Shown here: positions 2,894-64,000 of the stretch, piece by piece | Numbering within the stretch: the first letter of the stretch is position 1 | Layout: every line of letters begins with the position of its first letter | Assembly (NCBI GenBank): GCA_026387455.1 | Contig: JAPLLR010000046.1 | Location: forward strand, 4,921 to 68,920 | From: Candidatus Omnitrophota bacterium | GTDB lineage: Bacteria; Omnitrophota; Gorgyraeia; Gygaellales; Profunditerraquicolaceae | Direction of reading: 5' to 3' | Length of the DNA stretch: 64,000 nucleotides | The notes under the pieces: generated by a model | Seen by the model: only the letters and a program-made list of their open reading frames with translations | What the model was told of the DNA's origin: nothing | Database searches by the model: none | Made by a program: the position numbers and the translations under genes

Positions 2894-2920
2894 ATGAGCC
2901 TTTAACGGACGCAATATCCG

Positions 2921-2929
2921 TGATATAAT
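2921..2929 (+). promoter_or_regulatory. possible internal extended -10 promoter (TGATATAAT) ahead of the second ATPase gene
   Basis: Perfect TGnTATAAT at 2921-2929 in the 100-nt gap between the two ATPase genes; no good -35. Confidence 0.3.
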
Positions 2930-2993
2930 ATAAACAATGTGTAACGGCAGGCATAAAGCGAATAGAATTTAAGGGAGAAAGACGGCTAAGCTT

Positions 2994-7637: not shown

Positions 7638-7646
7638 TGACACAGT

Positions 7647-7880: not shown

Positions 7881-7886
7881 TTGGGT

Positions 7887-8139
7887 GTAATGAAACGAAA
7901 GGGCAAACCAGGAGTAATCCTGGGGCGCAAAGCCGCGGATCCTAGAAGTTGGATTAAATAATTTTAAGTTTCTAGTTGTTAGGATAGCCGGGCTGCCGAA
8001 TACCGACGAAAAAATCAGTATTTGCCAGTTCGGCTTTTATTTTTAAGTAGTTAATAAGTAGTTTTAAAAATACTTTATAAACGAGAATATGAAAAACAAG
8101 AGGTTTTACCTCATAGTATTTAAATTAAAAGTATAATAA
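7887..8139 (+). promoter_or_regulatory. long structured 5' leader of the giant ORF (candidate regulatory RNA element)
   Basis: Hairpin CCAGGA-GTAA-TCCTGG (7908-7923) with a GNRA tetraloop; further pairing potential at 7936-7956; weak hairpin plus T-run at 7995-8044. No tRNA or known riboswitch signature recognised. Confidence 0.3.
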
Positions 8140-41100: not shown

Positions 41101-44100
41101 AGCAGCGAATTAACATATTACGGATTCTATAAGAAGCTGGCAGAAGAGATCCTGCCTCAGGGCAAGGTTATCTTTAAGGTTATACCTTCCCAGAATATGG
41201 GCTTCAGGAGAGACGACGGCGATAAGACCTATATCTATGCCGTCGGCACAAAAGGCGATATTACCTATATCTATGTCACTTCTGCTTTATATGAAAAGAT
41301 CAGGGCAAGCACATATTTCAAAGCTGCCCTTTGCGTCCATGAGGTAGGCGAGACTAGAGACGTGTTCAATCACCTGACTGCCATGAAAGAAGAGATCCGC
41401 TTTTCCAGCGATCCGAAAAGCAACTTAAGCGACATGCAGCGTCTTGTATTTGATTCCGAGAATGATAAAGGAAACATGGCTTACCTATTAAGCATTATCC
41501 CGGATCGCCTTGTCCAGAAGGCATATTCTGATATCACCAGCGAGATGATCAGCTATGTAAGCCTGCTTATCGCCAAGCAGGTGCACGAAAGGCCGGTAGA
41601 CGCAGCTGTCATAGAGGAGGATGCTAATATCGCTGATTCTTTGCGTCATAGGCTATTCGATTCCATAAATAAGGCTACCCAGAATATTAGCATCCTTGGG
41701 CAGGGAGGCATATTATCAGAAGAGGTAAGGGGCGCCCTGAAAACTACCGAAGAATCAATCAACATCATTCTTACTTCCATAGAGGATGGAAAATTGAACC
41801 CCATAGCCAAAGACGCAGCGATCAAATTGCTTAAGAAACAGGCCAGGATCCTTAGGGAATTAACAGAAAATATGGCTTATTTGGAAAGATTCGAATCTTT
41901 TAATTCTCTTAAGAAGGATATCGATGAGTTCTACAAGAGGGTAGTTGAGGGGACACCTACGGTGGTAAAGGACCAGGAGCTGATTGACCTGGCTGATTTT
42001 ATGCAAGCCATCCACACTGAGCATTATGGGTATGGCTTTAGGCCGGTTGTTTCTGACCCTGGAATGCCTTTACCTATATTAATTAATGCGCATGACCTGA
42101 TGAGGATCTTTGAAGATCTATTACAGGCAATAGCTAGGAGAGCACATAAATCTAACACGGCAGTAGTATTTGTCACTGAACCCGGATTAATTAAAGTGAT
42201 TTTTAAGAACACCGATGCAGACGTAGTTGCTGTTCAGGCACTGCTGGAGAAGTGGCATGGCAGGGCATATCGTACACAGATAATCGGCACTTTAGGTGAT
42301 ATCGTCTTAGAGTTCCCTAAGGCTTTCAAGCTCTATCAGACTATTTCAAATGAAGTATTGGCTCAACTTGCAAATACAGATTGGGTTGTTTCTGTCTGTC
42401 AGCATAAAGAAAACCATGAGAATTTTATTGTTGATGAAAAGGTAAGTAGGATGACCGTTTACGGCCAGTATCTTTCACATGGCATGTGTCCGCAGTGCGA
42501 AAAGAAGAATCGTCCTGTTGAGTCAGAAGCTCAGGCAGCCGCAGCGAAGGTTCCGTCTGCGCCAACCAAGATCAGAGTTTTGTTTGTGGATGACGAAAAA
42601 GCAATTAGGGATATGATGGCGGGAAGAAATAATATGCCAGGATACCTGGCGATGATAGCTAAAGATAAGACAGTGAATCTTTCTTTTGAAGTGGTGATCG
42701 CGGAAAACGCCCAGAAGGCGCTTAACGCGTTTGTAGATGCCCAAAAGAAAGGACAACCTTTTGACTTAGTGGTCACCGATATGTCCATGCCGAAAAATCC
42801 TGATGAAGAGATCGAAGGCGGACGTGAATTAGCCCAGGCGATTAAGAAGATTGCACCCCAGACTTATATTATTATGGTCAGCGGTCATCACAGCCAGATG
42901 ACAGAGGTGGCCCAAGCTATCAAGGAAAATGTAATCAATAGTTTCTACACCAAGCCATTTATCGGAGAGGCAGTTAAGGAAGCGCTGCTAGGGTTTAAGA
43001 CCGCGCCCAACCTACAGGAAAAAGCACCTGTTAAGCAGGATGTTAGTATACTTGGTTCTGCGGCTGCCAGTGCCACAGCAGCGGCTACAGCAGCGCTGGC
43101 TTTCTACGCAGCAAAGGCAGTGATTATTTCCAGCTTTCATCCTTTCGCCATAGCGTTATTCGGAGTTTTAGCAGCAGTGTGTTTTGTCTCTGCGGCATGG
43201 GCTTATCTTTTTGGTTCGCAGGCTATCAGGCTATGGTTAACCAGGGCCAAGCCTGTACGCGCGCCTCCTGAGGCAAGAGCCAGGTTAGAAGCACAGCTGC
43301 AGGATTTCTTCGGGCCTGATGTCAAGGTGGTTCTGGAATCCGACTGTAAGACTATTGCCTCAAGCGATAAAGATAATAAGACAGTATTTGTTGATATCGA
43401 TTGGCTTTATAGGGTAGCTCCCCGCGCAACTGAACTTACCTCGTTCCAGAAATCTCTCCTCACCCATGAAAAAGCCCACTTAAACGGTGCCACAGAATCA
43501 GAAGCTTATATTGCCCAGGTTCTCGCTTCCCTTGTCCAGGATATTAATAATGCTAAGGGCGTTAAATTATGGGCGCTGTTCCTGGGTGTAGTTACATTAT
43601 GCCTAAGTTATAATAAACTTATTGCCGCATTTCCGATTTTAGCCACAGGCTGGATCGGAGTCCTTCTTATTGGCACAGCACTGGTGTTGTTGGGTGTTAA
43701 CTTTGTGCTTGCAAAATTCACCAAGAGAGGGGCTTCAGCTTTCTTTACCACAGTTGCATTGACTTTCTTCTTTGTCGGTCTTCTATTGGCGGTGGATGTG
43801 TTTAACCCGCTTTACGGAAATATCCTGAAGAGCTGGTTTCCGCAGACATGGTTGGCTTACATTGCTGACATGCGCGGAGCGGCAATAGCGATAGTAGCTT
43901 TTATTTCTCTGATCGTTCTGCCGGCTTTGATCAGGGAATATCAGGATAAGTTGGCCAAAGAGGATATCTATAAATACGATATCAAGGCTTTAAAAGATAA
44001 TCTTCTCAGGTTTATTAACGACGACATCAAGGATGAAAAGGTCAGGCAAAACTATATTGATCAGGTGGAAAGAATTGCTGTAAATAATTCTCGGGCAAAT

Positions 44101-47100
44101 AGAAGATACCTGCGCGATGTGCTTATGGTGCTGGAATGGGAGTTGTCAAAACAGAATGCTATCAAGGACCGCGCCTCATTGTTCCCGACTGCCCAGGAGC
44201 GTAAAGACGAAGCTGCAAGCGTTGATACGCAGAAAGCTCAAGACGCCCAGAAGGCCGGAATTGGGGCGATAGCTAAGGTTTCTTGGTTAGGCGTACTTTG
44301 TTCTTTTATCGGTCACAGCATCCAGGAGAGGGAAAAGAGGTTCTGGGACAGGGTTGCGGATTATTCCGGAGCTAGGAAGGTCTTTTACTTTGTCTTCGCT
44401 TTAGTTGCATTCATTCCTAGTTCAGCATTGGGGATAGCATTGCATTTTGGCAAGGCAGCCAGAGATTTCTTTATCCGTCATCAGGATAGGAACAACGAGG
44501 AAGCTTTTAGAATGCATGGCATGATGGCTGGTAAAGAGCTTTTGAAATTAGCCGACGCAGAAGAGCATGTAAGGGCTGCGTTTATGATGGCGGATAGGAT
44601 CAGCTTGAGCGGTAAACCTTCCGCCAATGTTTCGAATAGTATCAGGTTAAGCAAGAGGGGAATCTTCTGCCGGGAATGGTGGCGCTATCACTGGTTTGCC
44701 GCCAGAATGCGTTGGCCTAATGTCACCGGTGCCCTCTCATTTGTTAAGAGCAGGGTGGTCTTATTGATTTGCGGTTCCATCATCAGCTGGCCGATTGTCT
44801 ACGTTCTTTGCATACACTGCCCATGGTTGGCTAATGCTGTTCCGTTAATCAAGCCGCTCTTAGATGGCTGGGCTGTCAAGCAGGGCTTCCCGATTACCTG
44901 GGCCGAAATCTTGAAGATATTCTTCCTAGAGCTCTTCCTTACCTTCTTCCAGAACCCTGGTCTTCTTAGGGATGAATTATTGCGTTTTAATGGAGCGCAG
45001 AGCATTATTCAGGTCGAGCCCGGAAAGGCCAGCGCAAATATTGATAGGGGCATTATAAAAGGATTAAATGAGAATAATATGAGCACCAGGAAATTATATA
45101 ATGCCGGCTATGTTATCTTTACCGGAGCCCCGCATCTGAAGCTATTATTTGAGGAGAAGTGGGGAGCCTCCCGCGATAGCCATCCTTTGATTACCCTGAA
45201 AGCTTTCGCAAGCAATATCCTTAACGTAGCTACTTTAATGGTCCCGCTAGTAGTTATTCCCACGATGCTTTATACCTTATCTAGCTGGCATGTAGCATCA
45301 GCGGTCCTTATCTTATCGCTTTCTTTAGTGGCCTTCTTGGCTCCCAGACAATTCTATGTGTATATAGCGTTTAAACTCTCTCCGCCAAAAGACAAAGAAG
45401 CGCAGGATAGGTTGAAAAGAAGAATAGTGTTCGCCGCGGCATTGGATAAGCAGAAAACTGATTTCTTAAAGGGCGCGTGGGGGCTATCCATCATCGGAAT
45501 TGAAATCGGCGCCATCCGTGAATTAGGTCACCTGATACAGGGCCCGATAGGCACCATCGCTGATATTTTTGAAGGGCCGGAAGGCGCCCTGTCTCTCGGC
45601 GGACGCTTCTTCTCTTACTACGAAAGCCAGATCTGCGAGCATGTCTTTGGAATGCAGATTGACCAGCAGGATGAGCAGGATAAGAAAGAAATAGTTAGCC
45701 AGTTCCTTTATAATTACTTCGGCGGTAAGGGCCCGATGGAAGCAGCGTTTGCCTATGCCAGCTATCGCAATCGCGAATATTCCAAGGCCGCGCAGCTTAT
45801 GTCTGGCATCGTGAGTAGGTATGATTTAGATCAAGAAGGCCGTAACTTGACTGACAATGTCATGAAGGCTAGCGGTGAAGGCCTATCAGATAACCTTGGA
45901 AAGGCGATGAGGGAAAACGCCGAGGCCAGGGAAAGGCTTGCCAAGAATCGCGATAGATGGATAGCAGATATGGCGGACAGTCCTTATTTAAGCCAGGAAG
46001 CGTTTCTGGGTATGTTTGGCGTTGACGGATTCGAGCACTATTATAACGCTGTTGGTGACAATAAGAATAAGCTGGATCAGACTTTGCCTAATTCAGTCAA
46101 AGAAGTAAGAAATAATCTGATTCAGACAGCTCAAGTTGCTTTTGAGAAATGGCTCGTCAAAGGCGGGTTAGCAGAAGATTCCTTGCCTGTCGAGTTGATA
46201 GTAGCCAGGCAGTCTGATGTGGCTGAACCGGTTTCTGGCCAGCAGCAGGTGGCGGTATTAAGAATAAACCCTTTAACCAAGGAAGCCAGGATTTACTACT
46301 GGACCTCAGATGGGGAAACGGCTAAAACAGAAGTTTCTTGGGCCAATATTAGCGGAATAGTGATACCTGAAGGATTAAAGCAGTCTGTCATTGTTCTGAC
46401 CTCTCAGGAGCTCTTGACTGGCGAAGGTAAGGATGCCGGGTTCATCGTGCAGGCAAAAGGCCTGATCGAGGCGGTGTTAATTGATATCAAAAAGACCAAG
46501 ATTACCCTTGCAGAAAAGGACATTGATACCAGGGTGCTGGAGGAGCGTAAGGCAGAAGCGCTCAGGATAAAGGGCGTAAGCCGCCAGACTGAAGCCATCC
46601 ATATCAACGGAAACGGTAACGGCGAAGACACCCAGAGCATTATGGATAAGTTGATCAAGTTGGGCCCCAAGACCTGGCGCCAGCTTTTGAGAGGAGAGAA
46701 TCAGCAGGATTTTGTGAGCGTGATTAAGGCCATGGAAAGGGCTGGCTATCTGGATGACTGGAGCGAGGATGGTTTAACCGCAGCCATGGAGGCCTTCTGC
46801 AGGAGCAAGGGAGATTTAGATTTTAGGAAAGATTTCGCGAAGGTAAAAGATGCCGTCGTCAAAGAGCTGAGGGAGAGGGTCGGAATAGAAAAGGAAATAG
46901 AGAAGATCAAGGTAGAGATCAAGAAGGTTGATCCTTTAGAAGAGGGCAAGAAGAAAGAGCTCAAGATTAAAGAAGTAATGCTTGAGATAGAATTAGCCCA
47001 GATGGCTAGCAAAGTAAAGGATGCAGTCAGGGAGACCAAGGAAGATAAGGCAAGCGTAGCCACCAAGATAGGTAATTGGATTGGTCGCCAGAAGACAGAG

Positions 47101-50100
47101 GTGATGTCGCCTGAGAAATCAAAGATCAAGTCCTTGTCCGAGGAAAAAGATGCCTTAAGAGAGAATGTGGCTTACCTGAAGAAGATAGCTATTGTTACCG
47201 GAGATAAGGAGCTGGAGCAGCTGGCAAGGCAAATGAGTGCTTTGCAAGAGATGCTAGACTTCTCCATTGCCGCCTTAAGAAATTCTGGTAACTATGATGA
47301 CGAGAGATTACGCGCCATGGACCAGAAGGCGCAGGAGCTGGCGATGTCAATCGCTAAGCTTAAGATCGGCAAGCTGAATTTTGCGGAGATAAAGAAGAAG
47401 CTTGGAAATATACAGTTAACAACCAGCCAGGTACCCATGCCTGATATCAACAGCCTGCTGCAGGAAATAACATTCGGCAGGTTCTTTGAATTCGGCACAG
47501 ACTTATCCGCATATTTCGGCCAGGTGAAGAAATTCTACGTAAACTATACTTCTGAGGCGGCAAAGGCAGAAAGGCAGCGCCAGCAGAATGTGCTTTCTAG
47601 GATTAACTCTTCCTTAGAGAATATATTAAGGACGGATTCAGGGGCTTACGAGGTTTATTCTAGGTTCGAGGCTGATCCCAAGGCTGTTGAGATAGAGCTC
47701 CAGGCTTATCAGGATATGGTGGCAAGCCTCAAGCAGACATACCTTAGCGGCATAAAGTATCCTGTGCGCGATAATCTGGGCAGGGTGGTTTTTGAGTTTG
47801 ATTTTGAGGCGAGGCTTGCGGCATTGAAGGTTTTGTATAAAGATGCGATCCTGGCCAGAGTAGTCAACGAGAATATGGAGAAATTGTTCCTGGGTAATGC
47901 TGAAGTCTCCACAGAATCGCTGCGCAGGCAGTTAGAGGAGTTAGCCAACAATGAATCAGAGATCGATGCTATGATCCGGGGAGAGCAAACATCTAAATAC
48001 TGGGATACGCTGGTAGAGGCATTGCTCAAGGTTAATGGAAAAGAGATGACTAAGCAAGCGCAGGAAGAGTGGTTAAGGGGCTACGTTGATTCTATCAATC
48101 TTTACCAGGATCCTAAGGTAGTATTGAAGAATATGATTGATGAGCTAAGCGCTATGATAGTCCTTAAGGAAGCTAACCGGGACACCAAGGAAGCATCGGC
48201 AAAAGATGTCAGAACAAAGCTTGAGCAGATGAGGGACCTGATCTTTGCCTTAAAGCCTGCGCTCGTGATACGCTATGAAGACAGGACTGACTTACCTATA
48301 AGTAAAGAGCTGATTGACCTGGTGATCCGTTTCTTCGCTGATGTAAGGACCCTGGCTGATTTGGAAGCAAAAGCAGGCACACCTGAATATATCAAGCTTA
48401 ATAAATTATTGCATAAACTTGAAGAGCGAGCCCCAGATGATATCGTGGCTGTTTCTGAAAATGCAACCCAGGAGTTAGAAGATGCGCGTGGATATATTGA
48501 AGAAGGTAAGAAGAATATTCCTGAGAGCAAGAAAGAGGAATTAGCCAAGCTAGAAGAGCAGAAAGCAGCGGCCCAGAAGAATATCCAGAAATTGGAGCAG
48601 AACAAGAACTGGCTGAATAGGGCTATCAAATGGCTGGGCTTTGATTCAAAAGATGTCGAAGACCTTTCCGCCGAGAGCACCAGCCTGGATAGGAAAATTC
48701 AAAAGGCGACAGCGCAGCAAAAAATTGACCATAAGGCAAGGCTCGAGGCATATGAAAGGTCTATACAGGTCTTAAATAGTATCTTCCCGCAGAAAGAAGA
48801 AGATCAGGCTAAATTAATTGCTGATCCGGATAAGGCGCTAGAAGGAATAAAGAACGTTAAAGATGTATTAGCTGAGGTCTTAAGCGGAATAGAGGCCAAA
48901 ATCAAAGAAAAGATGGATTCTGCCAGAAAAGATGGCCAGGCTAAGAATGATAACGCCTGGTTTGACAAGTACCTGGTAGAGACGCTTGAATTAAGGGCCA
49001 AGAGGGATAGGATTAAGGATTTATTATCGAGGATAGAAATACAGAAGGTGCTTATCGAAGATGCGCAAAAGCTTTATGCCAGATGGAAGGCGTTTATCAT
49101 TCGCTGCGCGCTTGAAGGCTACTCTGCTCTGGCGGAGTATGAACTGATCCATAAGATGGATGAACTTAAGCTAAGCCTTAGCCTCAGCACCTTTGATGTT
49201 TTGGATAGAGCATATTTTAAGATGCTGGCAGAGGATATGGGCATTGAAAAGAAAAACGTGGTCAATGTCATCAAGTCAAGGCTAGACAGCGATGAGAAGA
49301 AAATAGCCAACTTTATTTCTCGCCTCCAGGAGAGGCTGAATTCTGCTGGTGGATACTTTGTAGGGTCTGAGGTGTTAGCGATACTCAACAGCTTAGTTCT
49401 GGAAGAAGCTAGGATGACTCCTCAGGTAAATGATGCTCTCAGAATTGCAGAATTCTCAAGGCGCGTATCTTTGGCCAATAGCTTTGTAGAGAGCTTCCAG
49501 AAAATCCTGGCTTTCAGAATCGGCAAGATCAGCACAGAGCGCATTATTAATTTGGCGGATGAGACCGCTAAGACCCTGGTAAGAGAAAGGTTTGTCGCGG
49601 AGCTGCAGTCAAGGCACAAAGAATTGAATGCCGAACAGATAAGTCGCTTTAGCGCGATAGTTGAGAAGATTGGCCAGATGCGCGTACTCGAGGGATTAAG
49701 GGTAAACAGAGTCACGATACTTAGAGCCGCAGAGGAATTAGGCAAATTAAACGAAAGAGAGCTCTCCCGGGCATATGAGACGGTAATCGAAGGCAGGGGC
49801 ATTGGCGTAGCCACCAAAGAACTGGAAAAATCTATTGAGGGGGTAAGAGAGGATATCGCAGAAGCAAAGGCTAGAAAGGAAAAGGATAAGAAGGCTATCG
49901 AGGAACTGCAGCAGAAACTGATAAGCTTAAACAAGGCATTTTACATATTAAAAGAAACCAATTCTGAAATAGCCGCAATAATCAAAGAAGTCGCCGGCTC
50001 CTTCAATTCTGATGAAGTAGTGGATCTTGCCCTGAAGGCCTTTGGCAGGTTAGAGGCTAGGCTGGCTGCTAGAGCCGCTGCGGAAAAAGATGAGTTCGTG

Positions 50101-53100
50101 CGTAAGCAATTAGAATCCAGTCTGGAAGCTTTAAAGACAGATATCAAGGCACTGATTTATATCCTTAAGGTCGTAGCGCCTTCCATGAGAAGCAGGATTA
50201 ATGCGACAGCTTTAGGTTTGAAGAGCCGGATTCAGGAGCTCCTGCCAGTTGCTGCGGTTGAGCAGATCAATCCCGAGGCGATTAGGTTAAGAGAGGTGTT
50301 TGATCAATTGGCTCAGGATAGATCAGCAAAAGACATAACTAAGGAGCAGGTAGATGTTTTAAGCGTTATAGCAAGCATCCTCGGGGAGAGCATAAATCAA
50401 TCACTTTATGTCAAGGATGCTGAAAAGCATGATATCGCAGGGCTTAGGATTCAGTTAGGATTGTTGCAGCTTGCTGAAAACGCGGATAGTGACACCGGCT
50501 TCATTAATGGTTTGAATCCCGCGCAATACTGGACAGATTCACTAGAGAAGGGTTATCAGGAGGCAAGGGATCATGTGCGTTTAGGTGATAATCCTTTCTA
50601 TGAAGATATGTACAGAAGCGAACTTGAGGCCAGGGAAAGCAGACTTCAGACGCAGAAGGTTCATAAGCAGGTTGAGGCGTTGGTTAAGGATGTCACTGAT
50701 ACCAAGGCTAGGCTCGATCGGTTTACGGCGAATAAGGCTGCATATTCCGATGCCCAGGCTCGCATCAATAAAGAGAAGGAAAGATTAGATAATCTTTACA
50801 AAGAGCTGAATAAGGTAAGCAATGATGAGGATAAGCTTGTTGAGAGCGCGGTATACTTAAGGCATCTGGCTGAGGCGACTAAAGAGCTGTGCTTACGCAT
50901 TATCGAGTTGAGGAAGGTGGATAGAGAGCTCAATGATATCGAGGGCAGAAAAGGTGCCGCAGAAACGATGAAGAACTGGATGCTGTGGCAGGTAAAAGCT
51001 GGTCTGTCGCGGGATTGGGATATGTATCTGATCTGCATGGATCTGGGGAATAAGTTAGCTGTTAAGCTGGATGAGTTTGATAAGACTCGGGAAGCTTTAG
51101 CAGCCTTGGAGAAGGAAAGAGAAGAATTATCCAAAAAACGTGATGAGTTGAACGCAGAGCAAAAGCTTAGGGATGTTAAGGGGCTCCAGGAGCAGGAGGA
51201 TTTCATCATCAGCAGCCTGGAAAAAGAGAGAGCTGCATTCTTAGCTAAGGTTGAAGAGTTATATCAATTAGGTCTGCAGGCAGCAGATTTAAGGACACAG
51301 ATCAGCCGTGCGAACGCTTCCATTACTCGTTTTGCCTCTAAGATGCAGGCCCAGGCGAGTCCGGAAGATATTAAGCAGCAGCAGGAAGAGCTGAAATCCC
51401 TGCAGGATAAGCGTAAGCTCCTTGAGGATAAGTTAGTTGAATTGGAAAAGCAGATGGCAGCGCGTAATCAAGAGCTAAGGAATACCGTGGAGATGCTTAA
51501 GATCGCAAAGGCTATTGAGGGTTATAGCGCAGCCTTAATTAAAATGAAACAAGCCTTGGATGCCACAACTGACAAAAAAGAAAAGCGTGAAGAAGAAAAG
51601 AGGATTAATAAATTAAGCTTGAATATCCAGGCCCTGGTCAAGGCTAAAGATGATACTACTAAGACACTGTTTGAAAGGATAACTGTCTGTCAGAAGATAC
51701 AGAATAGTATTGAAGTAAATCTCAAGCAGAATGATGAAGGTGCTGAGCTTGAGAAGCAGTTACGCAAGGTAAATATAAGGCTTGAAGAATTAAGGAAGAG
51801 TATCGCTGTCAAGGAGCAGGAGGTCAGGAATGCGCTAGATAAGATAGAGTTGATCACAGGCGCTGATGCCGTAAGGACGCTGTACAGCCAGGAGAATACA
51901 TTAAGAGAAGAGCTGAATGAGCGCTTAAGCGCCTTGAAAGAATTAAAGGATAAAGATAGCGCTAAGAGAGGCCTAAGGCAGGATAAAGATGATATCTTAG
52001 GCAGGAAGACAGCCTCTAACTATAGCGATGACCTGATCGGCCAGATCCATACTTTGAAGATGACTGATCTTACTGATGAAGAGAAGGCTGTCTTGGAAGA
52101 TATCGAGGCTTGGCAGAGGGAAAATCAACAGGGGGTATTCATGGTTTCAGTCTTGGATAATTTGATTGCTTCTTCTGAGGCGCTTAAGGAAGAAGTGGAT
52201 ACCGATACCTTCAGGAATAATATCATCGAGAGATTGACCGGATGCGAAGCAGAGTGGTTGATTTACCTGAATGCCCAGGTAAAAGAACTGCTTAAGAAAG
52301 AAGCTCCGTTATTAGCATTTGGAGATAAGAAGGCATTCTATAGCTGGCTGAAGAGCGAATTCCCGAGGGTGCATGACAAGTATGACCTCAAAGACACTTC
52401 TCTTTATAAAAAGATACTTTATATAGTGGGTGAGCTTTTTGAGATAAATCATCGCGATATCGGTGATCCGATAGCCGGCAAGGAGAGTTCCGACATACAG
52501 GCCGCGGCTGAATCCAGGGTTAATGCCGAAAAAGATAAGACAAATTTAAGCGGCACATTAGCCAGCGTGAACAAGGATGCCCTGACCTTAAGCGTTTACG
52601 CATCCTTACGTACGACTAAGGATGATAGCGCAGAGAAATCCGTATTAAAGACAGGCGTAAGATTAGGGGCTAATCTCGGTAAACTTATAGAGAATGATGA
52701 GTATATAAATAATTCAGACTTGGAGAAGATATTCACCGGTATTTACCGTGCCTATGAACAGATATCCGCCAGCGCGCAGAATATCATGGTTACCTACGAA
52801 AGAGTGTATACCTTAAAACAAAAGCTTAATGATTTGGGTGGCAACGTGGATGTAGAATACTTACGTATAAAAGCTGATTTAAGGCAGGCGCAGAGGGATT
52901 TAGCCAGGGCATTGGAACTTGAAGGCCGCGTAGACATCAGCTTAGAGGCTAGCCCGGAGAAATTGCAGCAGGTAGTGTTGGATAAAGTTGAGGCTGCTAT
53001 ACACGAAGCGATCAAAACCCAGCTAGCGGATATTGAAGGCGTTGACCCGGGAATGCTGGCTAGACTGTTAGAGAGAGTTTCAGTGTATGTGACAATAGGT

Positions 53101-56100
53101 TATGAAGCTACTAGCCTTAAGGAGACCGGAGCTGAAACCCAGAAGAGCAATAAATATCCCTTAAGCTTCATGCTGCATTTGGTTATCTGGGATGGCGCAA
53201 GCGGAGTGAATAAGGAGATTAAAGAGACGCAGAAAAAGCTTTATGAGTATAAGAAGGCGATGATCCTGGATGACTTAGAGGATAGAATCAAAAATGCGGA
53301 TAGCGTCTGGGAGATGGCTAGAAATATGCGCTATAAAGAGATGGTCACCAGGAAGTCTGGTAACATTGAGCAGGCCATATTCGGCGAAAGGATGAAGAAA
53401 CAAGCAAAGGCCGAAGAGAAGAAGGCTGAGCCCGCGTTTGAATTTGAGACGGAAAATGTTTATCCGGGCATAGATGAGCCGGTTGCCGAAGTAAGCAGCC
53501 AGATTGATAGCCAGCCGCTTGATGTAAATATCCATATGCCTTTCGGCCAGATTCAGGAGACGGCTAGCTTAGTCAGGCCCGAAGACAGGGATGAGGCATT
53601 CAATAAAGCGTTATGTGAGGCCATACTTTATAACGAAATCACCTACGGCAATAAGGAATTATATATTAATGCCTATGTGTATTTGATGCGTAATGTGCAC
53701 ATCTGGCCGGAAGATTTGACTACAGAAAAAGTCCTATGCATGATGGATTCTAGGCTCAGGGTTAGGTTCGAGAAATATCTCCCGGAGATCATGGAGAATT
53801 TAAGGAAGGCGCGTAATGAGCATAGCAGTAATCTTTTGAAGTGCCTCATTGATGAAGAAGATAGCATTATGATAGAGCTGGGTAAGCATCCGCAGCCGCA
53901 ATTGCGCAAGACTTTAGAGCAGAAATTGGCCAGGGTCAGGGAAGAGAATAAGCTCGTCATCGAAAGAGAGGAAGTTTCTGCGGATAGCTTAAATGGCGCT
54001 ATAGAGGAAAGATTAAAAGAGATCTATGATGGCCAGGAAGGAGAACTTTTCATCAAGTTAAATGAAGATTACCTGGCTAGCGAGTTGGAAAAGAAAAGTA
54101 GGAATGTTTCAGCGGATAGCCTGATTGATGCTGCGCGCAGACAGGAGGCAGAATATTTATCCATGCTGATCGAGGCCAGGATTGAATCTCAACCTCGTAT
54201 CCGTCTGGTCGAGCTGTTGGACAAGAGCCAAGAGCTGCACGCCAAGACAACTGCCTTAATAGCTGCAATCAAAGAAAAGCAAAGAGTACCTTCCGCAGTG
54301 CTTCCTGAAGCGACAAAGTCAGGTTTTGAAGTGGCTACGCAAGAAGATGGAAAAGCAGAAAAGGCCCTGAATAAGCTGGTCGAGAAATTGAATGACCAGG
54401 ATTGGAGCGTCTTATTAGAAGATCAGATCTTAGGCAGCGTGCTTAAGGATATACGCGTACATGAACCCAGATTCCTAGGTTTTCTCCCATTTTGGGACAG
54501 CGATTTCAAGAACGCCGTGCAGGATGCCATTTCTAAGGTTAAGGACGCCAAGGTCAGCGAAGAAGAGATCCTGGATAAATTGGCAGAGGGAATGCGCGCG
54601 TATATCCAGAAGAAAGACGCAGACGGCACTCTTGGAGAACTTATCGTTAGAAGTGCAGACTTGAAGGGATTAAAGATAGACGGCCTTGCTGCCGAGGAAT
54701 TAAGCGAGATGATCGATGCAATCTTCTCCGGAAAATCCGATTCCATGTACGCTTCCAGCTTTGTCAGCGCCATGGAAGAGCAGTTGGAGAAGGCCAAACA
54801 TTCCAAAGATCAGGTGGTTGCTAACTTGAAAAAAGCGATCATCTCCTTCCAGCTCGACGAACTTATCAGTAAGATAAGGGAAGAGCTACCCATAGCCATA
54901 GCAACCAAGAAAGCCGCTTTGGAGGTTCTGAATTGGCTGAAAGATAAAGAAGCTAAAGGTTTGCCTGAATATCTTACGGCAAATAGAAGATATCTGGATA
55001 CTGTAGAGTATAATCAGTTCCAGGCGACATTAAACACTTTTAAGACATGGTACGTAAACAAGGAAAAATTAAGCCAGGCTTTTGACAATGCCGCTTCAGG
55101 CTCTGGTACTCCGCCGCCGCCTCCTGAGTTGGAAGGCGCAGTAAGATCATTTATCGAAGGCACCTATGATACGAAGGCTGGAGAGTTTAACGGTGGAGAG
55201 TATAGCCTTTATCTTAATTACGCCCGTACAGAGAATAAATTATCGGAATTAGAGATAAGGCGTAGTGAACTGGAAAGAGCCGGTATTGATTTATCTTTGA
55301 TCAACCTGGTTTTAGCCACTTCCAAGATGACCTTCTGGACCGCCGAAGAGAGGTCCGATTACTTCCAGAATTACAAGGCTAAGGCCAAAGAAGTAAGTGA
55401 AGACAGCATTGAATTATTGAAGACCCAGCTTTACTTAAAGGCCCTGCGCCAGGCTCTGGTTTATAAGGCAGACGAGATCAGCAGCGATGACCAGAAAGAG
55501 TATTTTCTGGGAGATAGCTTAAGCAAATATTCCAGGGATGGAGCTGGCAAGTCATTAAAAACTTTGCGTGAAAGTATAGACGGACTAAAAGATGCCGATG
55601 ATATTAAGGCCGCGATCAAGTATTATCAGGAGAAGAGCGTTTCTCTTAACAGGAAGGCGATATTGGATGCCTTAGATACCTACAGGGCATACGTACAGTT
55701 CCTGCGCGAAAACAAGCAGGATATCTCTATAAACCTGGCCACCAATTATATCGTAATGGGGGTTATGAACGCCATTTACTTGATACAGGTATTGACCAGC
55801 GATCTTGGGTCCCCCAACGCTACCAAGATCGATGCGATGCGCAAGAAGATGCTTCCTGAGTTCAAGCTCTTAGGTGCGCAGCTTTACGGCCAGTCTGCTA
55901 TGCAGATCAACGGAAAGTCCGTGAACATCGCCAGGCAGAATTATTATGTGAACCCGAGGAATGCATTCATCTTCCACGAGGTTGCGGATTACACCGGGAA
56001 CCATTACATCGAACAATTAAAACGCAATATCGTATTCCGCGAACAGACTGATAATAGCTCTACATGGATGGAGGTCAGGTATACTGACCTGGATCTATCT

Positions 56101-59100
56101 ACCAGCCAGCGGACCACTAGCTCTACCTCGACTAGCCAGCAGACCTCTCTGGACCAGGAGAATAATGATCTTCTCCAGCAGCAGGATAATCAGCAGTATG
56201 TATTAAATAGCAGCAAGCTGATTTCTATGGGTAATCTTGGGAAGCTGCGCGCGGATTACAGCGTCCTGATCAATTCCGATAGGACTGGCAGCGGCACAGG
56301 CACTGAGGATACCTCTACCTCAACTACGGCTAGCTCCTCTAGCCAGCAGGAAGCCGAGCAAAGGCGCCGCGCCAACGAGCATCGCATCGGTTTGGAATAC
56401 GAAAGAGGCACGGATGTGAAATTCAAGGCAGGAGTTAACTTCTATATTAATTACGATAATGTAGATGCCTCTAGCGATACTACTACCACTACTGGCACAA
56501 CCACAGAGGATAATGCCAGCCCATATCGCTATGTGATATATCTGGACGCGGATACTGACTCTACCAACGGCCGCATCGGAGTGGAGGTCAAAGAAGACGG
56601 TGAGCTTTCTGTCTTCTCCAGCTACCGCCATCTCTTTGACTTAAACGGTAACCGCGGAAGGCTGGAGTTGAGCTATCAGGATCAGACCATTTACGGAAAA
56701 TATAATCAGAGAGCCGGAGCCTGGGTCTTTGAAGGATTATTCCAGCAGGACGATACCGCGCTGATTATCGATGTCCGCGCCGGACGCGATATCGGCAATA
56801 GCGGCTGGAGATGGGGTGTGGGAGACAGATATCAGGCCAATGATGATAATTCAGATACACAGGATAGTTCTACTTCTACTTCTACTTCTACCACAGATAG
56901 CTCTTCCAACAATAAGAGTAATGTGCCGTATCTTATCCTCGCCAAGAAATCTGGTAGCGTAGAAGTCTTTAACTTAAAAGCGGGTTGGGATACTGAGACC
57001 AATAATCCGGATGGAAAAGTTAAGGGACAGTATATGACGACCGCCAACAATACGTTATATTTAAGCGCGGAGACTAAGGCTGAAAACACGCAGGCTGAGC
57101 TGGGCAATATCTATTGGACCGGAAACACCGGAAAGCTGACCACTGCGGTGAACTGGACGACAGATGAAGGATTGGGAGCACTATTGAAGTGGTCCGGCCG
57201 CCGCAGCTCTTTAAGCGTATCCGGGACAGAATCCGGCCTAAACGCTACCGCCGAATATTATCTTTTGGGCGAAAATAGCTCTGCCAGCTCCAGGTCACAG
57301 ATAGATAACTCCAACATCCTTAATCTGAGGACGCCGGTAGGCAATATCCGCTATGATTCCAGCTACGCTGAGATAGTGAAAGGTTTACGGGAGAACCTCA
57401 GGAAGGCTGGCACGGATACCAGCAGTGTCTCCAGCGATACCGATATTGAAAGATTGGTAAAGAAGGTAGTGGGCGATAAGGTAGAAAGTAAGAGTATCGA
57501 GTTATTTGAGCGCCTTGGCAAATACATGAAGACTGACGACCTACTTAACCTTCTGGAAGATTATAATGCTCTGCGTAAGAACAGCAGCCTGCCGGAATAT
57601 TTAGGCGTGGATAGCGAAAGCATTGATCTGATGAACCCGTTGCATTTCTGGGAATTCAATTACTGGAGAGAAAAGTACAGGCAGGACAGGCATCAGGCCA
57701 TAGAGTCTATCAACAATCTTAACCAGCTTAAAGATGAAGTCGCTGTACTTATGGGCGAGAGGGCATTTAATTCCGGTAACAGCAAGGAAGTCGGGCTGGT
57801 GCGTCATTTTGCAAGTTTAGTTAATTCAGAGATGCCGGTAGAAAATGTGGAAAGCTATTTGAACAACGCTATCCAGGTCAAGGCCTATTTGACCGCAAGC
57901 AACCGCGCCTTGCCTTATCCGATCATGCCTAAGCTGGACGTCACTGATCCGGAAGCGCTTAATTTCTTATTCCAGTGGACTAATAAATATATAGCCTGGC
58001 GCAATGATAGCATTACTGACCCGCAAGTCTCCAGGCTTATGGCTTACACCGCTGTTTTCTTGAAGGACGAACAGGTGGCCTTCAATACTCAGGCGCGCGC
58101 ACCTCCGCAGATCGCCCAGACCATCGAGCTTGCTGAGAAGCTGCTTAAGGAAGACTCTCAGATGAACGCGGCACAGTTAATCCGCTTCAGCGAACTTTAC
58201 CATACCACCTTAGACAGATTAGGCACCGAATTCAGCCCCGATTTAAAGTTCTACACTGCTTTGCAATTTAGCCCTCTATCCGCGATCGACCCGCAGCGTG
58301 TCAAAGAAGCCAAAGATGCTATTACCCAGGCTGTCTCCGAAGTTGCCTGCGCCTCAGAAGACATCTCGCTTTGTGAGGACAGGGTAGTTGCCCGCCTGAC
58401 TTATCTAGAATATCAGTATCGTGATGTAGCCGTACGCCTTGAGAAGATGATGGAGATGAGGAGTTTCTTTGAAGAGCTGGTCTCTGGGTTAGAGATCTCT
58501 GACTTAAGCCGCCAGGCCATTGATTTGTATTATTGGGTCAAGGCGGAAGAAAGGGACAGCAACGTCAGGAGAGACTTCCTTACTCTCAAGAGGATACATA
58601 CAGATGCGGTCTTTAACGGCGCGCCTTACAGCTTAAGATTGGAAGACCTGAGGAAGCGCCTTGGAGAGCAGCAGGAGATGAACAAGAATTTAAAGAATGA
58701 TTTAGTTCTTGTGGATGAGTTCTTAAAGGCGGTCAAATATTACAGGGCTTGGATGGGCACTTCTAAAGAGCCGCGCATAGAAGTTGAGCGAGCGGGCATA
58801 AACAGCTCGATATTAAAACCGCTATTCCACATAGATCTATCCAACGGATTAGACGAAATGGATAGGCCTGGATTAAAGAAGATGCTTGCATCACCTAGCA
58901 GTAATTTTGATCAGATAAAGGTCAGATCAGTAAGGGCGGATGCGCAGACCGGATTCATTGCTACTGTTAGCGACGCAGGGATATTGATCAACAGGGAGAT
59001 CCTGAATAATGATTCTGTCAAGGCAGGCGAATTCATCGAGCAGGTATTAGAAAGAGCAAATCTTGATAAAGAAGAGAGGGCGCATATAGAAGCGCTGCGC

Positions 59101-62100
59101 GGCCTTGAAAGAGGAAAGATGATCCAGCTCATCCTGGTCCATGAATTAGGCGCGCGTTTCGGATTTGCCCACGAATCCAACATCAGCCTTGAGGAGATCT
59201 ACAAAGGTTATATGGGCTGGGGCTCTGAACAGGCTAAGGCCGGCGAGGAATTGCTGAACAGATTAGACAATTTATTCCAGAAGACCCACACTATCGTAGA
59301 TTACAATTATGACGGTGATGGTACAGACCTTGCAGCCGCTGATGCTGCAGGCGACGCAGAGCCGTTGGCTCTGGATCCGTTTGCTCCCGGGACTACCGAA
59401 TACGAGTTGGTGCACGAGAGCGCGTTCCTGAGTCTTTTTGGCGTGAGCAGCTATGATGACTGGGTTGCATCTTTTGGAGAGGATTCCGCTGCCCTTGACT
59501 GGGTAGGCGGCAGGGCTCAGGAAGTAAGCAGTAATTATGGAGGCAGCGTCAGCGCTTATATTAATGATCTTACGGTCGTGCAGTCGTTATCTACGGCTTT
59601 AGGTAGCGCTTCTATGGGAGCAAAGACGATTTTCGAAGGCGCTTATCAGGTGAGCATTACTCAGCTTACTTGGCATACTACTGCATATATGACCGAATTG
59701 TTTAGTGTTGTGGGCAGTTCTGATTGGGAAGGGGTAACACAGTTCATTGATTTCTTAGAGAAAGTCGCTAACTTTGACGCAGCTCTTAAGTCAAGCTCCT
59801 ATAGCACTCAGATAGATGCCGATATCTTATACAGCGCTTTTGGCGTGCGTTTCTTAGATGGCATCAGTAAGGCAGAGCTTGGCATAATCGGAGACGAACA
59901 GTACGGTATACTTTATGACGAGCAGGGTAATGTCAGGGATGCCAGCGACGCTATTAGTTTCTATGAGTCGGTGTATCTGTTCTACGCCGCTTGGCAGTCC
60001 AGTTCTGTCTCAAGCCAGCTTAACTCTACCATATTTGTACCTGCTTTCGGTCTGGATATTTCTAACGGCATACAGGCCGCTGACCTGGTCATCTTCGGCA
60101 ACCAACATTACGGGCTGCTTTACGATGAGTCCGGCAACGCTAGAGACGCCAATCAAGCCATAGATTTCTATACCAAGGTATATCAGTTCTACGCCGCCTG
60201 GCAGTCCAGTTCTGTCTCAAGCCAGATTAATTCCACGATTTTTATCTCGGCCTTTGGCCTGGATCTTTCTAACGGCATACAGATAGCGGATTTGTTAGTG
60301 TTCGGTAACCAGCAATACGGATTACTGTATGATGAGTCCAACAACGTTAGAGACGCCAATCAAGCTATAGATTTCTATACCAAGGTGTATCAGTTCTACG
60401 CCGCCTGGCAGTCAAGCTCTGTCTCAAGCCAGATTAATTCCACGATCTTTATCCCAGCTTTCAGCCTGGATCTTTCCAATGGTATACAGATAGCGGACCT
60501 GCTGGCATTCGGTAATCAGCAGCAGGGTTTACTCTATGACGAGCAAGGTAATTCTAGAAGCGCTAGTTCCGCTATTGAATTCTATGGGGCAGTATATCAG
60601 TTCTACGCCGCCTGGCAGTCCAGCTCTATGGCTAGTCAGGTCAACGCTACTTTATTCATTCCTGCTTTCGGTCTGGATCTTTCTAACGGAATCCAGGTTT
60701 CAGATTTGCTCGCGTTCGGCAACACGCAGTATGGCTTGCTTTATGATGAACAGGGCCACGTCAGAAGCGCAGATGCGGCTTTAGATTTCTATATTTCCGT
60801 TTATCAGTTCTACGCCGCATGGCAGTCTAACTCCTTTGCCAGCCAGATAAACTCCAGCATATTCATCTCTGTCTTCGGCCTGGATCTTTCTAACGGTATC
60901 CAGGAAGCTGATTTAATCATATTCGGCAACACGAATTATGGATTGCTCTTTGATGAGCAGGGCAATTCCAGGAATCCCAACGACGCCATAGATTTCTATG
61001 AGGCGGTGTATCAGTTCTACGTCGCTTGGCAGTCTAGCACTTACGCCGTAGCCATCAATACCCTGATCTTTAACTCCGCTTTTGCTGGGCTGGATCTCTC
61101 AGATGGTATTCAGATGGCGGACCTTTCGGCATTTGGTAACAGGAATTACGGCATACTGTATGATCAGGCAGGAAATTTAAAAGACCCTAATGCCGCGATC
61201 GATTTCTACGAGGCAGTAGTAGAGTTCTACAACGCCTGGAATGCCTCTAGCCTGAAGAATGACATCAACAGCATCATCCTCGGCCCTGTCTACGGCATCA
61301 ACTTAAGCGACGGTATCAGCGAGGCAGAGCTTGCCGCCTTCGGACGCAACGACCAGACGACCGGACATTACAATCCGCTTTATGACGATCAGGGCAATCT
61401 CAGGGATCCGCAGGACACCCTGGACTTCTTCGCGGCAGTGGTCAGCTTCTACAACGCCTGGAACGCCTCTAGCCTGAAGAACGACATCAACAATATTATT
61501 TTTATTCCTGCATACGGTTTGAATCTGGCAGATGGGTTAAGCGAAAGTGAGCTGAGCATAATGGGCGATGGAACTTTAGGCATACTTTATGAAACCGCCG
61601 ACCACTTAAGGGATGTAGATAGGGCCATGGAGTTCTATGAGGCCATAATCGTCTTCTATCAGGCCTGGAACGCTTCGCCTTTAAGGAATGAGATCAATAC
61701 ATTGATCCTGATCAACGCCTATGGTATCGACTTATCTGACGGCGCTATACAGTTAAGCGAATTGAGGGCTTTGGGTATCTACGAGTCTATTCCCAACGCT
61801 CCGCTTCTATATGACGAGAACGGGCAATTAAGGGACGCCGCTGACACAATGGATTTCTTTGAGGCGGTCGTGGGCTTCTATCAGGCTTGGAATACTTCGT
61901 CTTTAAGGAATGAGATAAATTCCCTCATCTTAATATCCGTCTACGGCATAGACTTATCCGACGGCATTAATATTTCCGATATAAACGCCTTCGGCAATAA
62001 AGACCCGAATAAGCCGTATATGTTATATGACCAGGACGGCAACCTGAATAACGCATCTGACATCATCGATTTCTTTGAACTGGTGGTTGAGTTCTATCAG

Positions 62101-64000: not shown

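What the first reader, a model, noticed from the sequence alone, without database searches (positions are those of the whole stretch)
59700..62950. About 16 tandem 69-aa repeats with exact 207-nt periodicity and near-identical central units at the end of the window
The unit (YGLLYDEQGNxRDxxxAIDFYxxVYQFYAAWQSSSVSSQINSTIFIPAFGLDLSNGIQIADLLxFGNQQ) is unlike common bacterial repeat classes (not Ig-like, RHS/YD, RTX or cadherin by eye). Conserved aromatics and D-G/N-G turns suggest a small beta-rich or alpha/beta module. Units at 60.18-60.8 kb are almost identical in DNA, implying recent expansion or homogenisation and a risk of assembly collapse. Distal units diverge (AWNASSLKNDIN; TAPNYNPLYD insertion, period 210), giving a gradient of repeat ages.
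Basis: seen in the sequence. Interest (0 to 1): 0.6.

Follow-up and report, generated by a model that had tools for sequence, protein, structure and literature searches.

The report
Helical repeat array in giant gene
The repeats are real, but they are old, well-diverged copies of an undescribed 69-residue helical module that probably forms a rod-like segment inside a giant (over 18,600 residue) surface protein of an Omnitrophota bacterium; they are not a recent expansion or an assembly hazard.

Summary
Observation confirmed in substance. An own-profile scan finds 14 well-formed units (59905-62868), a partial unit before them, a degenerate one after, and a lone degenerate copy at 58681-58863. 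Three details are wrong. The period is 207 nt for the first five intervals only, then 210-222 nt. The closest pair is 85% identical in DNA, not near-identical, with dS 0.86 and a longest shared exact word of 32 nt. The fold is mostly helical, not beta-rich.

The array lies in one stop-free frame, 8140-63999, of 18,620 codons, which runs off the window. That frame has a signal-like N-terminus, a peptidase C39 domain and about 30 membrane segments, and two T2SSE ATPase genes lie upstream. The ATPases and a homologous gene point to Omnitrophota, where giant genes are already described.

The unit matches no Pfam, NCBIfam or PDB family. Only about 40 of 1.84 billion protein clusters carry it. These include secreted dockerin proteins and proteins with glycoside hydrolase (GH2-type) or glycosyltransferase (GT2) domains. 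AlphaFold (pLDDT 90.5) gives a hairpin plus three helices per unit.

Most likely role: an extracytoplasmic alpha-solenoid spacer or scaffold. This role is inferred, not shown. It is a new repeat family of a familiar kind, of moderate interest.

The parts
8140..63999 (+). Single stop-free reading frame of 18,620 codons (giant gene). It starts at an ATG (MPNQK...) and runs off the 3' end of the window.
   Evidence: six-frame scan for stop-free stretches; translation. No in-frame stop over 55.9 kb cannot be chance.
8683..8922 (+). Peptidase C39 domain (aa 182-261 of the giant protein). It lies just after an N-terminal hydrophobic signal or anchor (aa about 28-50, ending ...VAQAAQ). A 'RPCGS' Cys and an 'HYVLV' His are present by eye.
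   Evidence: PF03412, 30.3 bits against a cut-off of 22. for the N-terminal hydrophobic segment.
28342..45342 (+). Cluster of about 30 strongly hydrophobic (transmembrane-like) segments, aa 6735-12401. It includes weak Peptidase_M50 and ICMT/PEMT matches and a Response_reg domain. No such segments occur after aa 12401.
   Evidence: hydropathy scan. (Pfam).
58681..58863 (+). Lone degenerate copy of the repeat unit, about 870 nt upstream of the array.
   Evidence: unit HMM, i-E 1.3e-7.
59116..59733 (+). Conserved pre-array module. It carries the motif HELGARFGFAH (59140-59172; pattern HExxAxxGxxH), followed by a helical segment that leads into the array. The module is shared with P0003, P0009, P0012, P0023 and P0025.
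   Evidence: 32% identity, E 3e-33 to P0025. (alignment). (the second half is helical with pLDDT 75-89; the first half is unresolved). (sequences).
59734..59904 (+). Partial first unit (profile positions 13-69).
   Evidence: i-E 4.9e-13.
59905..61149 (+). Units u1-u6, subtype 'YQFYAAWQSSS'. Unit lengths are 207 nt for u1-u5 and 210 nt for u6. Units are 61-91% aa identical to each other and at most 49% to any foreign unit tested.
61150..62016 (+). Units u7-u10, subtype 'FYNAWNASSLKNDIN'. Unit lengths are 222, 207, 222 and 216 nt. u7, u8 and u10 are as close or closer to units of a foreign protein (P0005, 61-65%) than to any sibling.
62017..62868 (+). Units u11-u14, subtype with the 'TAPNYNPLYD' linker. 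Each unit is 213 nt.
62869..63045 (+). Degenerate terminal unit (a C-terminal cap of the array).
   Evidence: i-E 6.9e-20. (22-35% identity to the other units).
63046..63999 (+). Non-repeat continuation of the same frame, cut by the end of the window.
   Evidence: There is no significant similarity to the post-array region of P0002.
1820..4322 (+). Two T2SSE/CpaF-type secretion ATPase genes (1820-2893 and 2994-4322) upstream of the giant gene.
   Evidence: PF00437; the best relatives are two Candidatus Omnitrophota MAG contigs at 66% identity, and the next best is at most 49%.

Best explanation
**What it is**
- The array is a protein-coding tandem repeat inside a giant gene of more than 18,620 codons, from an Omnitrophota bacterium.
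- Each unit of about 69-74 residues folds into four elements:
  - a tight hairpin (LYDxxGxxRD);
  - a 20-residue helix (AIDFYxxVxxFYxAW...);
  - a 13-residue helix (..INSxIxxxxF/Y);
  - a turn (G-I/L-D-L-S-N/D-G-I) followed by a short helix (xDLxxFG).

**How it most likely works (inferred)**
- Consecutive units pack on one another into a continuous alpha-solenoid rod of 16 units.
- The rod lies on the extracytoplasmic side of the membrane.
- It acts as a rigid spacer or scaffold. It connects a conserved helical pre-array module, which carries an HExxAxxGxxH motif, to the C-terminal parts of the protein. It thereby positions them at a distance from the membrane-embedded middle of the protein.
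- The copies arose by old duplications and are kept by purifying selection on the protein fold.

**Shown**
- The repeat, its frame, its age and its selection regime.
- Its rarity and the absence of database matches.
- The helical prediction.
- Its presence in another Omnitrophota giant gene.

**Inferred**
- The solenoid's rod shape, the side of the membrane, and the spacer or scaffold role.
For: **Frame and context**
- One open frame spans 8140-63999.
- It has a C39 domain plus a signal-like N-terminus.
- Its transmembrane-like segments are confined to aa 6735-12401.
- This matches published descriptions of Omnitrophota giant genes: N-terminal C39 near a signal peptide, many transmembrane helices, and an upstream type II secretion-like locus (bioRxiv 10.1101/2023.11.21.568195).
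- Tandem-repeat scaffolds with dissolved nucleotide tandems are reported as the rule in such proteins (bioRxiv 10.64898/2026.06.07.730766).

**Taxon**
- The upstream ATPase is 66% identical to ATPases on two Candidatus Omnitrophota MAG contigs; all other relatives are at most 49%.
- P0025 is named Candidatus Omnitrophica. It is the tail of a gene of about 11,000 residues or more on a 33-kb contig.
- That gene carries the same pre-array module, and its contig ends inside the first repeat unit.

**Fold**
- AlphaFold2 on four units gives pLDDT 90.5 and pTM 0.85, with the same hairpin plus three-helix pattern in every unit.
- The module just before the array is also helical, with pLDDT 75-89.

**Age and selection**
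- For u2/u3, dN is 0.051 and dS is 0.864.
- Other neighbouring pairs have dS of 1-2 or saturated, with dN/dS of 0.06-0.26.
- Unit subtypes are shared with foreign proteins.

**Side of the membrane, by homology**
- The same repeat occurs in P0001 and P0032, which have signal peptides by eye and Dockerin_1 domains.
- It occurs next to Glyco_hydro_2_C domains (P0021, P0006).
- It occurs after the membrane part of a GT2 synthase (P0013).
- In P0002 and P0018 it lies upstream of a transmembrane helix that is followed by an Arg/Lys-rich tail.

**Spacer-like behaviour**
- Copy number varies from 2 to 14 or more among homologues.
Against: - No experiment or ligand bears on the function.
- The model coordinates could not be inspected, so the rod geometry is inferred from pTM and the repeating secondary structure only.
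- The MSA for the model was made from the window's own units, 13 shifted rows.
- The topology of the window protein itself is unresolved:
  - the number of transmembrane segments is uncertain;
  - the stretch right after the last strong segment is Lys/Arg-rich, which by the positive-inside rule would put the C-terminal 6,200 residues in the cytoplasm.
- Many of the conserved positions are polar or glycine loop residues (D5, G8, D51, S53, G55, D60). That would also fit a repeated binding site rather than a passive spacer.
- No SecA_DEAD domain was found in the part of the gene that lies in the window.
Confidence: 0.55

Rival explanations
1. Multivalent binding array. Each unit carries one conserved polar loop patch (YDxxGxxRD and DLS[N/D]G). 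This patch would bind a repeating ligand, such as a cell-wall or capsule glycan of a prey or host cell, or Ca2+. The 16 units would then read along or clamp a polymer.
For: - Conserved acidic, Asn and Gly loop positions are among the best-kept columns.
- In other proteins the repeat co-occurs with carbohydrate-active and attachment domains: Dockerin_1, Glyco_hydro_2_C and Glyco_trans_2_3.
- Published work proposes prey adhesion and cell-wall processing for Omnitrophota giant proteins (abstract).
- Purifying selection is strong.
Against: - No similarity to any known carbohydrate-binding, EF-hand or dockerin module:
  - Pfam scans at E up to 10;
  - hhalign against dockerin gives 0.25% probability;
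  - Foldseek against PDB finds nothing.
- The DLSNG loop is two residues shorter than an EF-hand or dockerin loop (read from the sequence).
- The conserved Gly, Asp and Asn can be explained as turn and helix-cap residues.
Confidence: 0.28
2. Cytoplasmic helical scaffold. The C-terminal 6,200 residues, including the array, stay inside the cell and organise partners there.
For: - The segment after the last strong transmembrane helix is Lys/Arg-rich.
- The giant protein has a Response_reg domain and other normally cytoplasmic domains.
- The 2026 preprint notes that many long Omnitrophota proteins have cytoplasmic enzyme domains.
Against: Homologous arrays occur in proteins with N-terminal signal peptides and dockerins. 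They also occur on the non-basic side of C-terminal anchors.
Confidence: 0.1
3. A very divergent member of a known repeat family (dockerin/EF-hand pair, SLH, ARM/HEAT, TPR/Sel1 or TAL-like) that profile methods fail to recognise.
For: - The unit has a loop-helix-helix-loop-helix layout of about 69 residues, which loosely recalls a dockerin (by eye).
- It co-occurs with dockerins in three proteins.
- The top Foldseek hit, although not significant, is a TAL effector.
Against: - No Pfam family matches the region at E up to 0.01. Scanning each unit on its own at E up to 10 returns only stray matches with E of 0.05 or higher.
- hhalign against in-session dockerins gives 0.25% probability.
- The best Foldseek PDB hit has E 1.6 and TM 0.16.
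- The PDB sequence profile hits only designed toroids, at about 2 bits per repeat.
Confidence: 0.05
4. One reading: a recently expanded or homogenised array whose copy number in the assembly is unreliable.
For: - In another Omnitrophota assembly the contig ends exactly inside the first unit.
- Many homologues are short fragments.
- Such arrays can therefore break assemblies.
Against: In this window the maximum nt identity between units is 85%, the longest exact shared word is 32 nt, and dS is 0.86 or more. Reads of 100-150 nt would place uniquely.
Confidence: 0.02

Closest known systems
Giant genes of Omnitrophota (West-Roberts et al. 2023, bioRxiv 10.1101/2023.11.21.568195; 2026 preprint 10.64898/2026.06.07.730766, class 'tandem-repeat scaffolds')
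   Same: - A huge single frame.
- An N-terminal C39 peptidase next to a signal-like segment.
- Many transmembrane segments.
- A Response_reg domain.
- T2SSE ATPase genes upstream.
- Omnitrophota affinity.
- Internal repeats whose nucleotide tandems have decayed.
   Different: - The repeat unit here is not one of the repeats those papers list (TSP3, dockerin, NHL, WD, HEAT, TPR, the CBM35-like ladder, the beta-helix tube).
- No SecA_DEAD domain is seen in the 18,620 residues available.
- The total length is unknown because the window ends.
Alpha-solenoid repeats (ARM/HEAT, TPR/Sel1, TAL effector repeats)
   Same: Tandem helical units are predicted to stack into one continuous elongated domain. 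Copy number varies between homologues.
   Different: - The unit is about 69 residues with three helices of unequal length (20, 13 and 5-6 residues) plus a conserved hairpin. Known units are 34-47 residues with two or three helices.
- No profile or fold match.
Dockerin type I module (PF00404)
   Same: - Similar size (60-70 residues).
- A loop-helix ... loop-helix layout.
- Extracellular context.
- Found in the same proteins as the repeat in P0001, P0032 and P0033.
   Different: - It lacks the DxNxDGxxxxxD calcium loops.
- hhalign probability is 0.25%.
- There is no Pfam hit.
- The units are fused head to tail rather than being single modules.

Membership tests
Omnitrophota giant gene (as described by West-Roberts et al. 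2023) | Encoded in an Omnitrophota genome | tested here: met
   - The upstream ATPase is 66% identical over its full length to ATPases on two Candidatus Omnitrophota MAG contigs; the next best is at most 49%.
- The pre-array module and repeat are shared with a Candidatus Omnitrophica giant gene.
- This is indirect evidence. There is no marker gene in the window.
Omnitrophota giant gene (as described by West-Roberts et al. 2023) | Very long single ORF (their set: over 30,000 aa) | tested here: inconclusive
   18,620 codons without a stop, running off the window end. The full length is unknown.
Omnitrophota giant gene (as described by West-Roberts et al. 2023) | N-terminal C39 (or S8) peptidase near a signal peptide | tested here: met
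   PF03412 at aa 182-261. A hydrophobic N-terminal segment at aa 28-50.
Omnitrophota giant gene (as described by West-Roberts et al. 2023) | Numerous transmembrane regions | tested here: met
   About 30 distinct hydrophobic 19-mers with mean Kyte-Doolittle of 1.7 or more between aa 6735 and 12401. This is a crude method, not TMHMM.
Omnitrophota giant gene (as described by West-Roberts et al. 2023) | SecA_DEAD / SecA preprotein-binding domains (present in most) | tested here: not met
   No such Pfam hit at E up to 0.01 in the 18,620 residues available. The domains could lie beyond the window.
Omnitrophota giant gene (as described by West-Roberts et al. 2023) | Type II/IV secretion-like locus upstream | tested here: met
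   Two T2SSE (PF00437) ATPase genes at 1820-4322. The rest of the locus would lie upstream of the window.
Known Pfam/NCBIfam repeat families (TPR, HEAT, ARM, Sel1, SLH, dockerin, EF-hand, TSP3, RHS/YD, RTX, cadherin, Ig-like) | Profile match at or near the curated threshold | tested here: not met
   - Pfam scan of the region at E up to 0.01 gives only a spurious 25-residue Glyoxalase stretch.
- Each unit scanned alone at E up to 10 gives only stray DUF and Glyoxalase hits with E of 0.05 or higher.
- NCBIfam gives nothing relevant.
Dockerin type I | Two calcium-binding loop-helix segments recognisable by profile comparison | tested here: not met
   hhalign of the unit profile against an alignment of the dockerins of P0001, P0032 and P0033 gives probability 0.25% over 8 columns.
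Any solved fold (PDB) / viral predicted folds | Foldseek match with E below 1e-3 | tested here: not met
   - PDB best hit has E 1.6 and TMq 0.16.
- BFVD best hit has E 0.24 and TMq 0.14.
Metzincin metallopeptidase (for the pre-array module) | HExxHxxGxxH zinc motif and metzincin fold | tested here: not met
   - The motif is HExxAxxGxxH in the window, P0012, P0023 and P0025, so the second His is replaced by Ala.
- There is no Pfam hit.
- The structure of this part was not resolved (pLDDT below 50).

The most novel reading that the evidence does not exclude
The array is a modular polymer-reading solenoid. Each 69-residue unit would present one conserved polar loop patch to successive repeat units of a prey or host cell-envelope polymer, much as TAL or PUF repeats track nucleic acids. 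Omnitrophota giant proteins would then use a previously unknown helical glycan- or envelope-binding repeat for attachment.
Probability: 0.1. Interest if true: 0.7.

Novelty: new variant of a known kind. Interest (0 to 1): 0.35.

Why it matters
- Most of the sequence of Omnitrophota giant proteins has no annotation.
- This work defines one conserved unit of that unannotated sequence. It is a 69-residue helical repeat with a conserved lead-in module, and it recurs in at least one other Omnitrophota giant gene.
- The repeat also occurs in secreted dockerin proteins and in proteins with glycoside hydrolase or GT2 glycosyltransferase domains.
- A family profile would annotate these regions.
- It would explain why short-read assemblies of such genes tend to stop there.
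- It would offer a small, confidently foldable construct for the first biochemical tests on a giant-protein segment.
- By itself the repeat is not a surprise. Tandem helical scaffolds in giant surface proteins are expected.

Tried and rejected
**Searches that found nothing**
- Array plus C-terminus as a single protein against genome contigs and metagenome contigs: no relatives.
- A degenerate [FY]G[LI]D[LI]SNGI pattern from alignment A3 against metagenome contigs: no relatives.
- The search for homologous proteins with the whole array found only P0001.
- The same search with the pre-array module found nothing.
- The search with u7-u14 found P0004, P0012 and P0025.
- SRR20698647, the run that holds the identical upstream ATPase, is mentioned in no paper searched.

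**Libraries unavailable**

**Inconclusive analyses**
- AlphaFold of the pre-array module with a 3-sequence alignment left the HExxAxxGxxH half at pLDDT below 50. I did not fold-search it.
- Positive-inside counting around the last transmembrane segments did not settle the topology.
- The post-array 377 residues show no significant similarity to the post-array region of P0002. A C-terminal anchor therefore cannot be transferred to this protein.

**Hits rejected**
- The designed-toroid PDB hits are additive noise from a helix-cap motif, at about 2 bits per repeat.
- P0040 (junk repeat translation) and P0042 (TPR protein) in the representative search are false positives.
- The organism names on P0004 (Bathyarchaeia, 3.1-kb contig) and P0012 (Desantisbacteria, 1-kb contig) sit on very short contigs. 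I do not rely on them.
Full report

Yes, in substance. Tandem Repeats Finder reports a 207-nt array at 59970-61038 (5.2 copies, 75% matches) and a 213-nt array at 62155-62772. The repeat finder gives start-to-start spacings of 207 nt five times, then 210 and 222 nt, and three copies 213 nt apart further on.

Translating the frame and anchoring on the F[YF]xx[V..]...W motif gives 15 units. An HMM built from them finds 17 copies in the frame:
- a lone degenerate copy at 58681-58863;
- a partial unit at 59734-59904;
- 14 strong units at 59905-62856 (E 1e-31 to 1e-37);
- a degenerate terminal unit at 62869-63045.

Two details are not.
- **Periodicity.** It is exactly 207 nt only for u1-u6.
- **Identity.** No units are near-identical in DNA.
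  - The closest pair (u2/u3) is 85% identical in nt and 91% in aa. All other pairs are at most 73% in nt.
  - The longest exact word shared anywhere in the array is 32 nt.

**2. Age and selection**

Nei-Gojobori estimates for u2/u3 are dN 0.051 and dS 0.864, giving dN/dS of 0.06. Other neighbouring pairs have dS of 1.0-2.0 or are saturated, with dN/dS of 0.08-0.26. These are old duplicates under purifying selection, not a recent expansion or homogenised block. Short reads would place uniquely, so the collapse risk in this window is negligible.

The units form three sub-blocks: u1-u6, u7-u10 and u11-u14.
- u7, u8 and u10 are as similar or more similar to units of an unrelated metagenomic protein (P0005, 61-65%) than to any sibling.
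- u1-u6 are 61-91% identical to each other and at most 49% to any foreign unit tested.

The distal subtypes therefore predate the split from other carriers. The proximal block is a lineage-specific but still old expansion.

**3. What the array sits in**

The main thing missed is the context. The array is in frame inside a single stop-free stretch from 8140 to 63999, of 18,620 codons, that runs off the window. The product has these features:
- It starts MPNQK..., with a hydrophobic signal- or anchor-like segment at aa 28-50.
- It has a Peptidase_C39 domain at aa 182-261.
- It has about 30 strongly hydrophobic segments, confined to aa 6735-12401.
- It has weak Peptidase_M50 and ICMT/PEMT matches and a Response_reg domain.
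- It then runs for more than 6,200 residues without a hydrophobic segment. The array lies near the end of that stretch.

Upstream lie two T2SSE-type ATPase genes, a Y1 transposase, a TPR protein and a Ser/Asn/Tyr-rich secreted protein.

The first ATPase is 66% identical over its full length to proteins on two 'Candidatus Omnitrophota bacterium' MAG contigs. Every other genome hit is at most 49%.

This anatomy is what has been published for Omnitrophota giant genes: N-terminal C39 near a signal peptide, many transmembrane helices, and an upstream type II/IV secretion-like locus. A 2026 preprint adds three points about such proteins:
- C39-bearing architectures form its largest cluster.
- Receiver domains are common.
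- Tandem-repeat scaffolds with decayed nucleotide tandems are the rule.

**4. Is the unit a known repeat?**

No match was found.
- **Pfam** on the region at E up to 0.01 gives only a spurious 25-residue Glyoxalase stretch.
- **Pfam on each unit alone**, at E up to 10, gives stray hits with E of 0.05 or higher.
- **NCBIfam** gives nothing relevant.
- **A unit profile against PDB sequences** hits only designed toroid proteins, through a helix-cap motif worth about 2 bits per repeat.
- **hhalign** against dockerins taken from the homologues gives 0.25% probability.

**5. Distribution**

A profile search of 1.84 billion representative proteins finds only 42 with E of 1e-3 or better, and 29 with E of 1e-10 or better. 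Two of the weakest are false positives. The carriers are environmental and often fragments. They include:
- **Very large proteins:** P0009 (7,848 aa), P0003 (3,752 aa), P0018 (3,434 aa), and P0014 joined to P0021.
- **Secreted proteins with Dockerin_1:** P0001 and P0032.
- **Proteins with a GH2-type TIM barrel:** P0021 and P0006.
- **A GT2 synthase with the repeats after its membrane part:** P0013.

Five carriers (P0003, P0009, P0012, P0023, P0025) share with the window a conserved module just before the array. P0025 matches at 32% identity, E 3e-33.

P0025 is labelled Candidatus Omnitrophica. It is the tail of a gene of about 11,000 residues or more on a 33-kb contig, split only by a 147-N scaffold gap. 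The contig ends inside the first repeat unit. The module plus array is therefore a recurrent part of Omnitrophota giant genes, and elsewhere assemblies do stop at it.

**6. Fold**

AlphaFold2 on u2-u5, with an alignment of shifted four-unit windows, gives mean pLDDT 90.5 and pTM 0.85. Every unit has the same pattern:
- a two-residue beta-bridge hairpin (Y4/x10);
- a 20-residue helix;
- a 13-residue helix;
- a short turn at DLSNG;
- a 5-6 residue helix.

This is an alpha-helical repeat, not beta-rich.

The second half of the pre-array module is also helical (pLDDT 75-89) and runs into the array. The first half, with the HExxAxxGxxH motif, was not resolved.

**7. How it most likely works**

I commit to an extracytoplasmic alpha-solenoid spacer or scaffold. 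The high pTM and the repeating packing suggest one continuous elongated domain of 16 units. It is capped by a helical lead-in module and a degenerate last unit.

The extracytoplasmic placement is inferred from homologues, not from this protein.
- Some homologues have signal peptides and dockerins.
- In P0002 and P0018 the array lies upstream of a transmembrane helix followed by a basic tail.
- In P0013 it follows a basic stretch plus a hydrophobic segment.

In this protein itself, positive-inside counting is inconclusive and even leans the other way.

The main rival is a multivalent binding array. Several of the best-conserved columns are polar loop residues, and the family keeps company with carbohydrate-active and attachment domains. 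The two readings are not exclusive.

**8. Comparison with what is known, and novelty**

- The giant gene is a member of an already described kind.
- The repeat is a new sequence family and, so far, an unmatched unit topology. It belongs to the familiar kind 'tandem helical scaffold in a giant surface protein'.
- I rate it a new variant of a known kind, with moderate interest (0.35). It is useful for annotating unannotated stretches of giant proteins and as a tractable construct, but it is not surprising to a specialist.

Noticed in passing
window 8140-63999 (+): One uninterrupted reading frame of 18,620 codons fills 87% of the window and continues beyond it. Only six Pfam families match anywhere in it (C39, M50, ICMT, PEMT, Response_reg and a spurious Glyoxalase stretch).
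   Followed up: partly
window 59140-59172 (+); also P0012, P0023, P0025, P0003, P0009: A conserved metzincin-like motif has its second zinc-binding His replaced by Ala. It reads HELGARFGFAH here, and HEIGALWG[LF][SE]H and HEISALWGVKH in homologues (pattern HExxAxxGxxH). It may be a pseudo- or variant metallopeptidase that always sits just before the repeat array. AlphaFold gave pLDDT below 50 for this part.
   Followed up: partly
window about 43465-43479 (+), giant aa about 11776-11780: A canonical HExxH motif (LLTHEKAHL) lies in a loop between transmembrane segments. It is preceded by a '...TVFVDIDWLYR...' stretch that resembles the context of the pre-array HE motif. There is no Pfam hit.
   Followed up: no
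window 8500-8560 and 8830-8850 (+), giant aa about 133-137 and about 232: The C39 domain appears to keep its catalytic residues ('RPCGS' Cys and 'HYVLV' His, by eye). It may be an active peptidase rather than a C39-like domain.
   Followed up: no
window about 8990-9400 (+), giant aa about 285-420: A Pro/Ala-rich low-complexity linker (FVGPPAPAPAP occurs twice) follows the C39 domain.
   Followed up: no
window 15343-18375, 20929-24828 and 36157-37257 (+): Self-BLAST shows other, weaker internal repeats in the giant protein (aa 2402-3412, 4264-5563 and 9340-9706). The 69-residue array is by far the most repetitive part.
   Followed up: no
window 6393-7637 (+): A 414-residue secreted-looking protein just upstream of the giant gene is very rich in Ser, Asn and Tyr. 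It has repeated 'SYNNSTVISSFN...QPGGGYNNSGS' segments.
   Followed up: no
window 4441-5058 (+): A Y1 (IS200-like or REP-associated) tyrosine transposase gene lies between the secretion ATPases and the giant gene.
   Followed up: no
window 20809-21594, 24180-25088 and 28068-28859 (-): Long antisense stop-free stretches (262-303 codons) lie inside the giant gene. They are probably a by-product of its composition rather than genes.
   Followed up: no
window 60178-60209 and 60592-60623 (+): A 32-nt stretch encoding VYQFYAAWQSS is identical between u2 and u4, although these units are only 70% identical overall. It could be chance, codon preference on a conserved peptide, or a small gene-conversion patch.
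   Followed up: no
L083 (NCBI DMEX01000065.1, Candidatus Omnitrophica), locus 1-12908: A 33-kb contig consists almost wholly of one giant gene (9,985 aa, a 147-N gap, then 969 aa). It ends at the contig edge inside the first repeat unit. Apart from the pre-array module it shows almost no similarity to the window's protein.
   Followed up: partly
L002 (NCBI CAZNLU010000031.1), 1-2187 and 2220-5417: P0001 is a complete 1,065-residue secreted dockerin protein with a few of these units at its C-terminus. It is preceded by a gene with faint matches to the same unit, so there may be a small paralogue cluster.
   Followed up: no
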